Below the pieces are notes generated by a model. It saw only the letters and a program-made list of their open reading frames with translations, made no database searches and was not told where the DNA came from. Position numbers and translations under genes: made by a program. DNA of 64,000 nucleotides from Piscinibacter terrae (GTDB lineage Bacteria; Pseudomonadota; Gammaproteobacteria; Burkholderiales; Burkholderiaceae_C): NCBI RefSeq assembly GCF_003852895.1, contig NZ_QUSW01000007.1, forward strand, positions 231,411-295,410, given 5' to 3'. Position 1 is the stretch's first letter, and each line of letters starts with the position of its first letter. Positions 34,193 to 34,710 of the stretch are shown here, piece after piece.

Positions 34193-34342
34193 AGAGGTAG
34201 GGAGGTGAGGAAGGCGCTGCATGCGAAGGCGCACAGGAGTACAGCACCACGCTCGCAACGTGGATCCGCGCAGCCGGGCGACCGGCCAGCAACTCTTGTG
34301 AATCTGGTCGCATGCGGCGCCGACCGATCCGGCTCGACTGTT

Positions 34343-34445
34343 GTCGAGTGGCGAATGCTTGATGGGACTACATCGCTTGTGACGCTATCCGTCTCATCAT
34401 TTTCCTTGTCGCTACCCGAGAGCAGTTGAAGGAGTTCGAGTTTTT
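34343..34445 (+). ncRNA. Y RNA-like gene 1 (Rsr-associated ncRNA; boundaries approximate)
   Basis: Located between rsr and rtcB; 5' motif GTCGAGTGGCGAATGC and 3' motif CCTTGTCGCTACCC able to pair into a terminal helix; ends at T-run 34441-34445. Confidence 0.35.
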
Positions 34446-34549
34446 GCGCGAATGCATGCAGGACTACATTGGGGGCCAGGGGTTCGAATCCCCAGCCGGG
34501 AAACCGGCAATGGCAGTTGTCCTGCGAAACCCTTGTCGCGCTGTTTTTG
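34446..34549 (+). ncRNA. Y RNA-like gene 2 with tRNA-like T-arm module
   Basis: 5' GCGCGAATGCATGCAGGAC pairs with 3' GTCCTGCGAAACCCTTGTCGCGC; internal GGGG-TTCGAAT-CCCC T-arm mimic and GCCGG-GAAA-CCGGC GNRA hairpin; ends GCGCTGTTTTT. Confidence 0.45.
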
Positions 34550-34550
34550 A

Positions 34551-34702
34551 TGTCGTGCAGCGAATGCAGGTGGAACTACAGCCTCGTAAGCTCGTGGTCG
34601 CGGGTTCGAGTCCCGCCGGTTCCAGATCAGGGGAACCGTAGCTCAGTTGGATAGAGCACGAAGGTTTCGCCAATACTTGTCGCTGCGTGGCATTGATTTT
34701 TT
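34551..34702 (+). ncRNA. Y RNA-like gene 3 (YrlA-like) with tRNA-like T-arm and D-arm module
   Basis: 5' GTCGTGCAGCGAATGCAGG pairs with 3' CTTGTCGCTGCGTGGC; internal GCGGG-TTCGAGT-CCCGC T arm, GGTTCC-AGATCAGG-GGAACC hairpin and TAGCTCAGTTGGATAGAGCAC D-arm mimic; ends GCATTGATTTTTT just before rtcB. Confidence 0.5.
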
Positions 34703-34710
34703 GAAGTGAG

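What the first reader, a model, noticed from the sequence alone, without database searches (positions are those of the whole stretch)
34193..34710. Three tandem Y-RNA-like genes between rsr and rtcB sharing GCGAAUGC / CUUGUCGC terminal-helix motifs and carrying tRNA-like T-arm and D-arm mimics
The 518-nt rsr-rtcB spacer is non-coding and resolves into three units, each ending in a T-run (34441-45, 34544-48, 34695-700). Each unit can pair a 5' element containing GCGAATGC with a 3' element containing CTTGTCGC into a long terminal helix, the expected Ro60-binding stem of Y RNAs. Units 2 and 3 additionally carry near-perfect tRNA T arms (GGGG-TTCGAAT-CCCC; GCGGG-TTCGAGT-CCCGC). Unit 3 also carries a D-arm mimic TAGCTCAGTTGGATAGAGCAC, as described for tRNA-like bacterial YrlA RNAs. 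Three copies, rather than one or two, with a shared motif is unusual.
Basis: partly seen in the sequence, partly recalled or inferred. Interest (0 to 1): 0.65.

Follow-up and report, generated by a model that had tools for sequence, protein, structure and literature searches.

The report
Four tandem Y RNAs after rsr
The gap between the Ro60-like gene rsr and the RNA-ligase gene rtcB encodes four (not three) small Y-type RNAs in a row, an expanded version of the known Salmonella rsr-yrlB-yrlA-rtcB RNA-repair operon that is normal for this bacterial group.

Summary
The Y-RNA reading is right in kind but wrong in count and in the claim of rarity.

The 518-nt rsr-rtcB spacer sits in an RtcR/sigma54-type RNA-repair operon of a Burkholderiales bacterium. 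It holds four tandem Y-like units:
- a: 34213-34321
- b: 34344-34419
- c: 34446-34541
- d: 34547-34696

Only d passes Rfam's YrlA threshold (81.1 bits against 69). Units c and b are sub-threshold YrlA and YrlB matches. Unit a matches no Rfam family.

All four share one core: a closing helix ending GCGA/UCGC, an asymmetric AUGC/YUNG loop, and a second helix followed by RSUACA. Each belongs to a class conserved in 43-72 related species, with abundant compensatory base-pair changes.

Across 78 related spacers the order a-b-c-d(-e) recurs, and 52 hold at least four units. Three is therefore not unusual. A Rhizobium etli plasmid also carries at least four or five units.

The window's unit a is the only one of 300 units with G in place of the invariant U of CGAAUGC.

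The most likely mechanism is inferred, not shown: the units are co-transcribed from the RtcR/sigma54 promoter, processed, and bound by Rsr through the shared stem, while the different distal modules engage different partners. This is a new variant of a known kind, of modest interest.

The parts
29100..30716 (-). rtcR, a sigma54-dependent activator with an RtcR/CARF-type N-terminal domain
   Evidence: Pfam RtcR 277 bits and Sigma54_activat 166 bits. It lies divergent from rsr in 70+ related loci.
30851..30866 (+). sigma54 -24/-12 promoter-like element, TGGCACGCTGCCTGCA
   Evidence: It is the only match in 28-35 kb. An equivalent element is present in the rtcR-rsr intergenic region of 52 of 72 relatives, and in 0 of 77 spacers.
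32597..34192 (+). rsr (Ro60 ortholog, 531 aa)
   Evidence: Pfam vWA_Ro60 71 bits and TROVE 24 bits. It shares 70-88% identity with 80 Burkholderiales Rsr loci.
34213..34321 (+). Y-like unit a. It has a 14-bp closing helix (34213-34226 with 34308-34321), an AGGCG/AAUCUGG internal loop, a 9-bp second helix and a branched distal module. The 5' motif is GCGAAGGC.
   Evidence: The fold has z -2.7. There are 42 orthologs at the same position, and 21 of 37 pairs have compensatory changes, with 98% of cells paired and 0 of 500 shuffles reaching this. The class-c HMM hits it at E 2e-6. It has no Rfam hit.
34344..34419 (+). Y-like unit b, a YrlB-like long hairpin. Its core closing helix pairs 34348-34354 with 34409-34415.
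   Evidence: Rfam YrlB 35.1 bits, E 2e-5, below the gathering score of 97. In 68 orthologs, 13 of 16 pairs are compensatory, with 97.4% paired and 0 of 500 shuffles.
34441..34445 (+). T5 run after unit b
   Evidence: A T run of 4 or more follows class b in 38 of 68 loci, against 2.7% background.
34446..34541 (+). Y-like unit c. Its closing helix pairs 34446-34451 with 34536-34541. It carries a T arm at 34479-34493 and a GGGAAACC hairpin, but no D arm.
   Evidence: Rfam YrlA 37.7 bits, E 1.1e-6, below the gathering score of 69. In 64 orthologs, 14 of 29 pairs are compensatory and the T arm is 98.4% paired, with 0 of 500 shuffles.
34544..34548 (+). T5 run directly after unit c
   Evidence: A T run of 4 or more follows class c in 59 of 67 loci, at a median of 5 nt after the 3' motif.
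34547..34696 (+). Unit d, which is YrlA. The Rfam match spans 34557-34689. The T arm is at 34600-34616, the middle hairpin at 34618-34637 and the D-arm mimic at 34639-34659. The closing helix can extend to about 17 bp.
   Evidence: Rfam RF02553 81.1 bits against a gathering score of 69. In 60 orthologs, 21 of 39 pairs are compensatory, including pairs in the extended closing helix.
34697..34702 (+). T6 run after unit d, 8 nt before the rtcB start codon
   Evidence: A T run of 4 or more follows class d in 46 of 84 units.
34711..35934 (+). rtcB RNA ligase
   Evidence: Pfam RtcB 428 bits.
35966..36793 (+). rlaP (RNA-repair-pathway Pol-beta-family nucleotidyltransferase)
   Evidence: Pfam RlaP 320 bits.
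36765..37832 (+). rtcA RNA 3'-phosphate cyclase
   Evidence: Pfam RTC 263 bits.

Best explanation
The spacer encodes four paralogous Y-type non-coding RNAs in the order a, b (YrlB-like hairpin), c (T arm only) and d (YrlA, a full tRNA mimic).

**Shown here.** All four share one core: a closing helix ending 5'-GCGA/UCGC-3', an asymmetric internal loop (5' AUGC, 3' ...YUNG), and a second 8-9-bp helix followed by RSUACA. Each has a different distal module. Each class is conserved, with compensatory changes, across dozens of Burkholderiales species, in a fixed order.

**Inferred from the Salmonella, M. smegmatis and D. radiodurans systems.** The RNAs are made as part of the RtcR/sigma54-driven rsr...rtcB-rlaP-rtcA transcript and cut out of it. 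Each binds the Rsr ring through the conserved 5' strand of the closing stem. The distal modules then tether or gate Rsr towards different partners or substrates, for example PNPase or tRNA-binding factors. One Rsr protein would thus be diversified into several RNPs during the tRNA-damage response.

**Open.** The U-runs after b, c and d probably mark 3' ends, through processing or partial termination. They may also lower read-through into rtcB.
For: **Family and context.**
- Unit d passes Rfam YrlA; c and b give significant sub-threshold YrlA and YrlB hits.
- The flanking genes are Rsr, RtcB, RlaP, RtcA and a divergent RtcR.

**Structure.**
- All units fold into a helix / asymmetric loop / helix architecture.
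- Covariation by class: a, 21 of 37 pairs; b, 13 of 16; c, 14 of 29; d, 21 of 39. In every class tested with controls (a, b and c; no controls were run for d), 0 of 500 shuffles reached the observed values and the slid-partner controls collapsed.

**Shared origin.**
- Cross-class HMM hits link a-c, c-d and b-d.
- CGAAUGC is present in 246 of 262 units of classes a-d.
- The order abcd(e) recurs in 38 of 78 spacers.

**Co-transcription.**
- A single sigma54 -24/-12 element lies upstream, none lies in any spacer, and no sigma70-like site is found.
- Gaps between units are 5-30 nt.

**Literature.**
- The Ro60 site lies in the closing stem and only its 5' strand is conserved across bacteria (10.1101/312249).
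- The GNCGAAN0-1G motif, two or more Y RNAs per species and processing from a single precursor are reported in PMC4201824.
- The sigma54/RtcR-controlled rsr-yrlBA-rtcBA operon is described in PMC7790460 and PMC9879122.
Against: - There is no expression, 3'-end or Rsr-binding data for this organism.
- Units a, b and c fail Rfam gathering thresholds.
- The window's unit a carries G at the U that is invariant in the other 299 units, and its inner hairpin is remodelled. It may bind Rsr poorly.
- U-runs directly after GC-rich closing stems resemble intrinsic terminators. That would argue against simple read-through to rtcB. However, the terminator scan found no more sites than shuffles give: 2 against 2.1.
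Confidence: 0.72

Rival explanations
1. Only YrlA (d), perhaps with b, is a working Rsr partner. The other units are decaying duplicates with no function of their own.
For: - Units a, b and c fall below Rfam thresholds.
- The window's unit a has a unique U-to-G change at an otherwise invariant position and lacks the conserved inner hairpin.
- Unit number varies from 2 to 5 among species.
Against: - Each class keeps its own distal module and shows many compensatory pair changes across 43-68 species.
- The unit order is conserved.
- The window's unit a is not more diverged from orthologs than b: 0.72-0.81 identity against 0.61-0.77.
Confidence: 0.1
2. The spacer acts mainly in cis. It would be a series of stem-plus-U-run attenuators or terminators (and processing sites) that set how much transcription reaches rtcB-rlaP-rtcA. 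The Y-like folds would be secondary.
For: - T runs of 4 or more follow classes b, c and d in 55-88% of loci, against 2.7% background. For class c they lie a median of 5 nt after the closing stem.
- The scan calls two terminator-like sites, at 34523-34540 and 34678-34692.
Against: - The terminator count is no higher than in shuffles.
- The closing stems enclose 60-140 nt, unlike canonical terminator hairpins.
- Class a lacks U-runs.
- A conserved Rsr-site motif and tRNA mimicry are not needed for attenuation.
- In Salmonella rtcBA is expressed from the same rsrp promoter, through yrlBA (PMC9879122).
- This rival is compatible with the main explanation rather than exclusive of it.
Confidence: 0.12
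3. The units are independent genes, each with its own promoter and terminator, as vertebrate Y RNA genes are.
For: Units b, c and d are each followed by a U-run.
Against: - No sigma70-like or sigma54-like promoter lies in the spacer.
- Gaps of 5-30 nt leave no room for promoters outside the preceding RNA.
- Characterised bacterial Y RNAs are processed from polycistronic precursors (PMC4201824).
Confidence: 0.05
4. The T-arm and D-arm segments are remnants of tRNA genes, spill-over from the neighbouring 18-tRNA array.
For: - Near-perfect T and D arms are present.
- A large tRNA array lies 6 kb upstream.
- The class-d HMM weakly cross-hits those tRNAs.
Against: - ARAGORN and the Rfam tRNA model find no tRNA in the spacer.
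- The arm order is permuted (T before D) and there is no anticodon arm.
- The arms are embedded in the conserved Y core.
- The arrangement is conserved with covariation in 60+ species, most of which lack an adjacent array.
Confidence: 0.01

Closest known systems
Salmonella Typhimurium rsr-yrlB-yrlA-rtcB-rtcA operon (RtcR/sigma54-controlled)
   Same: - A divergent rtcR and a sigma54 -24/-12 element are present.
- rsr comes first and the Y RNAs lie between rsr and rtcB.
- The hairpin-type RNA precedes the tRNA-like YrlA.
- rtcA lies downstream (PMC9879122, PMC7790460).
   Different: - There are four RNAs (five in many relatives) instead of two.
- Two extra classes are present: a (branched module) and c (T arm only).
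- An SPFH gene and a tRNA-like leader sit ahead of rsr.
- rlaP lies between rtcB and rtcA.
Rfam YrlA (RF02553) and the YrlA crystal structure (PDB 6cu1, cited in 10.1101/312249)
   Same: Unit d matches the model full length at 81.1 bits, with the CGAAUGC stem, T arm, middle hairpin and D arm.
   Different: - In this clade the closing helix is longer (about 12-17 bp).
- A small extra hairpin lies between helix 2 and the T arm.
- Unit c shares only the stem, T arm and hairpin, and fails the threshold.
Mycobacterium smegmatis YrlA/YrlB
   Same: More than one Y RNA lies next to rsr. They are processed from one precursor, and the second RNA (YrlB) also carries a possible T arm, like unit c here (PMC4201824).
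   Different: The RNAs are encoded upstream of rsr, there are two of them, and the genes are not linked to rtcB in that description.
Deinococcus radiodurans Yrn1/Yrn2 and the Rsr-Y RNA-PNPase (RYPER) complex
   Same: It is the model for how this locus would work. The stem binds Rsr and the distal module tethers an effector. Several small RNAs are encoded next to rsr and made as a polycistronic precursor (PMC4201824; 10.1101/312249).
   Different: It belongs to a different Y RNA lineage (metazoan-like stem sequence), the RNAs lie upstream of rsr, and no binding has been shown for the RNAs studied here.
Rhizobium etli plasmid rsr locus (species cited for YrlA in PMC4201824)
   Same: At least four or five tandem GAATGC units follow rsr. 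Two score 92 and 63.5 bits on YrlA.
   Different: - The units are mostly YrlA-like.
- No class-a or class-b type was detected with confidence.
- No T-runs are present.
- The downstream gene is annotated only as hypothetical.

Membership tests
Bacterial Y RNA (Rsr-associated ncRNA, sensu Chen et al. 2014) | Encoded within about 4 kb of rsr on the same strand | tested here: met
   All four units lie 21-504 nt downstream of the rsr stop codon on the + strand.
Bacterial Y RNA (Rsr-associated ncRNA, sensu Chen et al. 2014) | Long stem formed by the 5' and 3' ends, carrying the conserved 5'-strand motif (G)NCGAAN0-1G | tested here: met
   - Closing helices are 6-17 bp.
- CGAAUG is present in b, c and d; CGAAGG is present in a (sequence).
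- The leading G of the published motif is present only in b. It is also absent from unit d, which passes Rfam.
- The helices covary.
Bacterial Y RNA (Rsr-associated ncRNA, sensu Chen et al. 2014) | Physically bound by, and stabilised by, Rsr | not testable with these tools
   This needs immunoprecipitation or gel-shift experiments.
YrlA (Rfam RF02553) | Score at or above the curated gathering score (69 bits) | tested here: met
   - Unit d scores 81.1 bits, so the test is met for d only.
- Unit c scores 37.7 bits and does not meet it.
- Units a and b give no YrlA hit.
YrlA (Rfam RF02553) | tRNA-like effector module: T arm, middle hairpin, then D arm, in that order | tested here: met
   - Unit d has the T arm at 34600-34616, the hairpin at 34618-34637 and the D arm at 34639-34659.
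- In unit c only the T arm and hairpin are present, with no D arm, so c is not a YrlA.
YrlB (Rfam RF02565, Salmonella-based) | Score at or above the gathering score (97 bits) | tested here: not met
   Unit b scores 35.1 bits with E 2e-5, and its L009 ortholog scores 28.8 bits. It shares the hairpin architecture and the motifs CGAAUGC, GGAYUACAUC and UUGUCG, so it works like a YrlB but is not a member by score.
tRNA | Cloverleaf with an anticodon arm, detectable by ARAGORN or Rfam RF00005 | tested here: not met
   No tRNA call falls within 34193-34710.
Intrinsic (Rho-independent) terminator | Short GC-rich hairpin with a 3-8-nt loop, immediately followed by a U-run | tested here: inconclusive
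   Two sites were called, at 34523-34540 and 34678-34692, but shuffles give 2.1. U-runs are nevertheless strongly conserved after b, c and d.

The most novel reading that the evidence does not exclude
Burkholderiales rsr operons would carry a fixed, ordered battery of four to five structurally distinct Y RNA classes (a-e). Classes a, c and e are not captured by any curated family. Each class would direct the single Rsr ring to a different partner or substrate during the tRNA-damage response. Their U-run 3' ends would act as graded attenuators that set the Rsr/Y RNA to RtcB ratio. In about a fifth of species this battery is physically coupled to a spare-tRNA array, forming one 'tRNA damage island'.
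Probability: 0.2. Interest if true: 0.55.

Novelty: new variant of a known kind. Interest (0 to 1): 0.35.

Why it matters
The partners and roles of bacterial Y RNAs remain largely unknown, apart from PNPase tethering in Deinococcus. This locus offers a natural series of four or five RNAs that share one presumptive Rsr-binding stem but carry different distal modules: a branched junction, a plain hairpin, a T arm only, and a full tRNA mimic. That series is a ready-made comparison for asking what the distal module does. The analysis also shows that curated models see only one of the four or five units per locus, so Y RNA numbers in genomes are under-counted. It does not change the current picture of how Ro60/Y RNA systems work.

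Tried and rejected
- **Phage origin.** No similarity to the spacer was found in the phage collection.
- **Plasmid hits.** They cover only the YrlA part, query positions 369-490. Inspection of one of them nevertheless revealed a multi-unit array.
- **Extra Y-like units elsewhere in the window.** Other GCGAATGC sites lie at 8113, 15306 and 48603. The class HMMs hit only the spacer, plus weak T-arm and D-arm cross-hits in the tRNA array and the operon leader.
- **A Y RNA in the operon leader.** CGAATGC at 31171 follows a T arm and a tRNA-like element. Rfam gives only a tRNA hit (34.8 bits) and a local 24.7-bit YrlA fragment of the dimeric-tRNA kind that Chen et al. warn about. The motif order is wrong for a Y RNA.
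- **Helix-pairing heuristic.** My simple heuristic missed most class-e units and some 3' partners, so I replaced it with iterative nhmmer. The class-a HMM then absorbed class-c sequences. Class membership was therefore taken from the best-scoring class per region and checked by eye in alignment A1.
- **T-arm register in class c.** RNAalifold put the class-c T arm one base out of register. I re-tested with the window's minimum-free-energy structure projected onto the alignment. The stem enclosing the T arm is only 52% paired in the MAFFT alignment and remains unproven.
- **Decay of unit a.** Unit a is not more diverged than unit b.
- **Coding potential.** The 61-84-aa ORFs in the spacer were not pursued. 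Alignments show non-triplet indels and paired substitutions.

Full report
**Observation.** The spacer 34193-34710 lies between a 531-aa Rsr/Ro60 ortholog (vWA_Ro60 and TROVE domains) and RtcB. GCGAATGC sits at 34351, 34448 and 34560, and CTTGTCGC at 34405, 34532 and 34676. The two T arms are at 34479-34493 and 34600-34616, and the D-arm mimic is at 34639-34659. T5 runs are at 34441-45 and 34544-48. The third T-run is T6 at 34697-34702, two bases from the stated position. The window-wide count of GCGAATGC is ordinary (6 against 6.5 in shuffles). But three copies on one strand within 518 nt, each followed by CTTGTCGC, is far beyond chance. About 0.026 copies are expected there, and the paired pattern is expected 0.02 times per window.

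**Context.** The locus is a complete RtcR-type RNA-repair operon:
- rtcR on the minus strand (29100-30716);
- a sigma54 -24/-12 element, TGGCACGCTGCCTGCA (30851-30866);
- a leader with a tRNA-like element;
- an SPFH/Band-7 gene, then rsr, the spacer, rtcB, rlaP and rtcA.

Rsr relatives at 70-88% identity place the window in the Burkholderiales, in the Rubrivivax/Aquabacterium/Ideonella/Comamonadaceae region. In most of the 80 related loci (about 65) the layout is rtcR(-) | rsr - spacer - rtcB - (rlaP) - rtcA.

**What Rfam sees.** At gathering thresholds only 34557-34689 is called, as YrlA: 81.1 bits against 69, full length, with T arm, hairpin and D arm. With permissive settings 34445-34545 matches YrlA at 37.7 bits (E 1.1e-6) and 34345-34418 matches YrlB at 35.1 bits (E 2e-5, gathering score 97). 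Nothing matches 34193-34344. The same holds in relatives. In ten loci only the fourth unit passes. In the five-unit array of L009 the scores are: none, YrlB 28.8, YrlA 28.8, YrlA 79.4 and YrlA 30.7.

**Four units, not three.** Each of the three recognised units folds into a closing helix, an asymmetric internal loop and a second helix. Explicitly pairing the 5' CGA with a downstream UCG delimits four units in the window:
- a: 34213-34321, with a 14-bp closing helix;
- b: 34348-34415;
- c: 34446-34541;
- d: 34547-34696, with a closing helix extendable to 17 bp.

The shared core, read from the sequence, is:
- a: GGCGCUGCAUGCGA-AGGCG-CACAGGAGU-ACAG ... ACUCUUGUG-AAUCUGG-UCGCAUGCGGCGCC
- b: GUGGCGA-AUGCU-UGAUGGGAC-UACA ... 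GUCUCAUCA-UUUUCCUUG-UCGCUAC
- c: GCGCGA-AUGCA-UGCAGGAC-UACA ... GUCCUGCG-AAACCCUUG-UCGCGC
- d: GCAGCGA-AUGCA-GGUGGAAC-UACA ... GUUUCGCC-AAUACUUG-UCGCUGC

**Comparative evidence.** The rsr-rtcB spacer was extracted from 77 related loci. It is 270-1430 nt long (median 579) and carries 1-6 GAATGC motifs, with a median of 4. Iterative nhmmer seeded with the four window units sorts the units into classes that recur in a fixed order. The layouts are abcde in 20 spacers, abcd in 18 (including the window), bcd in 9 and bcde in 7, with the rest scattered. In total 52 of 78 spacers hold at least four units.

Each class is a conserved structured RNA:
- **Class a** (43 sequences): 37 predicted pairs, 21 with compensatory changes, 98.0% of cells paired. 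No shuffle of 500 reached any measure, and slid-partner controls fall to 35-43% paired.
- **Class b** (68 sequences): 13 of 16 pairs compensatory, 97.4% paired, 0 of 500 shuffles.
- **Class c** (64 sequences): 14 of 29 pairs compensatory, T arm 98.4% paired, 0 of 500 shuffles. The stem enclosing the T arm is poorly aligned at 52% paired.
- **Class d** (60 sequences): 21 of 39 pairs compensatory, including the extended closing helix and a small clade-specific hairpin ahead of the T arm.

The classes are paralogs. In a search of the whole window, the class-c HMM hits the a region (E 2e-6) and the d region (E 2e-15). The b HMM hits d (E 3e-8), and the d HMM hits c (E 5e-9) and b (E 3e-5). Nothing else in the 64 kb matches apart from weak tRNA cross-hits. 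CGAAUGC is present in 246 of 262 units of classes a-d, and class e uses UGAAUGC.

**The window's unit a is odd.** Of 300 units, 299 have U at the fifth position of CGAAUGC. The single exception is the window's unit a, which has G. It also lacks the GCGGGCCCGCAAGCCCGC inner hairpin found in its orthologs. Both core helices are intact, and its overall divergence from orthologs (0.72-0.81 identity) is no worse than that of unit b. I treat it as a real member of class a whose Rsr binding may be altered.

**How it most likely works.**

*Shown here:* four paralogous structured RNAs with a common stem and different distal modules, under purifying selection on structure, sit inside an RtcR/sigma54 operon.

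*Inferred:*
- They are co-transcribed with rsr and rtcB. One sigma54 element lies upstream, and equivalents occur in 52 of 72 relatives. No sigma54-like element lies in any of 77 spacers, no sigma70-like site lies in 32300-35000, and the gaps between units are 5-30 nt. They would then be processed, as shown for the Y RNAs of M. smegmatis and D. radiodurans (PMC4201824). The Salmonella rsr-yrlBA-rtcBA operon is likewise transcribed from one sigma54 promoter (PMC9879122).
- They bind Rsr through the closing stem. In all characterised Y RNAs the Ro60 site lies there, Ro60 contacts mainly the 5' strand, and only the 5' strand is conserved among bacteria (10.1101/312249). That is exactly the pattern seen here: an invariant CGAAUGC against a variable YUNG.
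- The distal modules engage different partners. Effector tethering is established only for D. radiodurans Yrn1 and PNPase. For YrlA the partner is unknown, and a decoy role against anticodon nucleases has been suggested (PMC7790460).

**U-runs.** T runs of 4 or more occur within 35 nt after the 3' motif in 59 of 67 class-c units, at a median of 5 nt. The figures are 38 of 68 for b, 46 of 84 for d and only 2 of 43 for a, against 2.7% in coding sequence. They are conserved features of b, c and d. Whether they are terminators, processing sites or protein-binding tails cannot be decided here. The terminator scan finds no excess over shuffles.

**Comparison with what is known.** The closest system is the Salmonella rsr-yrlB-yrlA-rtcB-rtcA operon. 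It has the same regulator, the same gene order and the same placement of a hairpin-type RNA ahead of YrlA. This locus differs in having four RNAs (five in many relatives) and two extra module types. M. smegmatis YrlB, with its possible T arm, is the nearest analogue of unit c (PMC4201824). That paper reported 355 YrlA-like sequences in 254 bacteria and 22 phages, so multiple copies per locus were already noted. A Rhizobium etli plasmid, from a species cited in that paper, carries at least four or five tandem units after rsr. Multiplicity as such is therefore not new. To my knowledge, and within the papers I could search, the following have not been described: the conserved ordered a-b-c-d-e series, class a (no curated-family match), and the fact that curated models detect only one unit per array.

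**Verdict.** The Y-RNA interpretation is right in kind. The count is four, and the claim of rarity does not hold within the clade. This is a new variant of a known kind of system, of moderate-to-low interest. It is useful mainly as a natural module-swap series for working out what Y RNA effector domains do.

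Noticed in passing
window 25633-28408 (+); L002, L006, L007, L008, L014, L016, L022, L034, L040, L066, L068, L072: The window holds an 18-gene tRNA array covering 18 different amino-acid identities (no Ala or Thr). It ends 0.7 kb from the 3' end of rtcR. Arrays of 5-23 tRNAs flank the rtcR/rsr operon in at least 14 of 80 related species. In L002 and L072 the array lies directly upstream of rsr on the same strand. 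A link between long tRNA arrays and rtcB is published for cyanobacteria (PMC8421152). I did not check whether it has been described for Burkholderiales.
   Followed up: partly
window 31026-31121 (+): The operon leader, downstream of the sigma54 element, holds a T-arm-like hairpin (31026-31042) and a tRNA-like element (31054-31121). The latter scores 34.8 bits on Rfam tRNA, is not called by ARAGORN, and has a shortened anticodon arm. Both are conserved in L023 and L048, where ARAGORN calls tRNA-Arg and tRNA-Glu. These are the only relatives that also have the SPFH gene ahead of rsr.
   Followed up: partly
window 31431-32570 (+): An SPFH/Band-7 gene is inserted between the sigma54 promoter and rsr. 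Among 80 relatives it appears at this position only in L023 and L048.
   Followed up: no
window 34221-34229: Unit a reads CGAAGGC where 299 of 300 Y-like units across the clade read (C/U)GAAUGC. This could be a recent mutation at the presumed Rsr contact site or a sequencing error.
   Followed up: partly
L001 8112-8241; L009 5155-5313; about 36 other loci: A fifth Y-like class ('e') follows YrlA in many relatives, including the closest one, L001. It is about 150 nt long, uses UGAAUGC and scores 30.7 bits on YrlA. It is absent from the window, where rtcB starts 14 nt after unit d.
   Followed up: partly
L081 3997-4660 (Rhizobium etli CIAT 652 plasmid pA): At least four or five tandem GAATGC-containing units follow rsr. 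Two score 92.2 and 63.5 bits on YrlA. No T-runs lie between them, and none of the units is annotated in the record.
   Followed up: partly
L024 and L043, spacer offsets about 630-1400: These two Pelomonas loci have 1430-nt rsr-rtcB spacers, with about 0.8 kb of extra sequence after unit e. Its content was not examined.
   Followed up: no
window 35966-36793 and 36765-37832: rlaP lies between rtcB and rtcA and overlaps the predicted rtcA start by 29 nt. rlaP is present in about 48 of the 80 related loci (about 60%).
   Followed up: no
L015 3418-3538: An Rfam Betaproteobacteria-1 RNA (RF02932, 80.4 bits) lies next to rtcR in a Variovorax locus. The window has no counterpart at the gathering threshold.
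   Followed up: no
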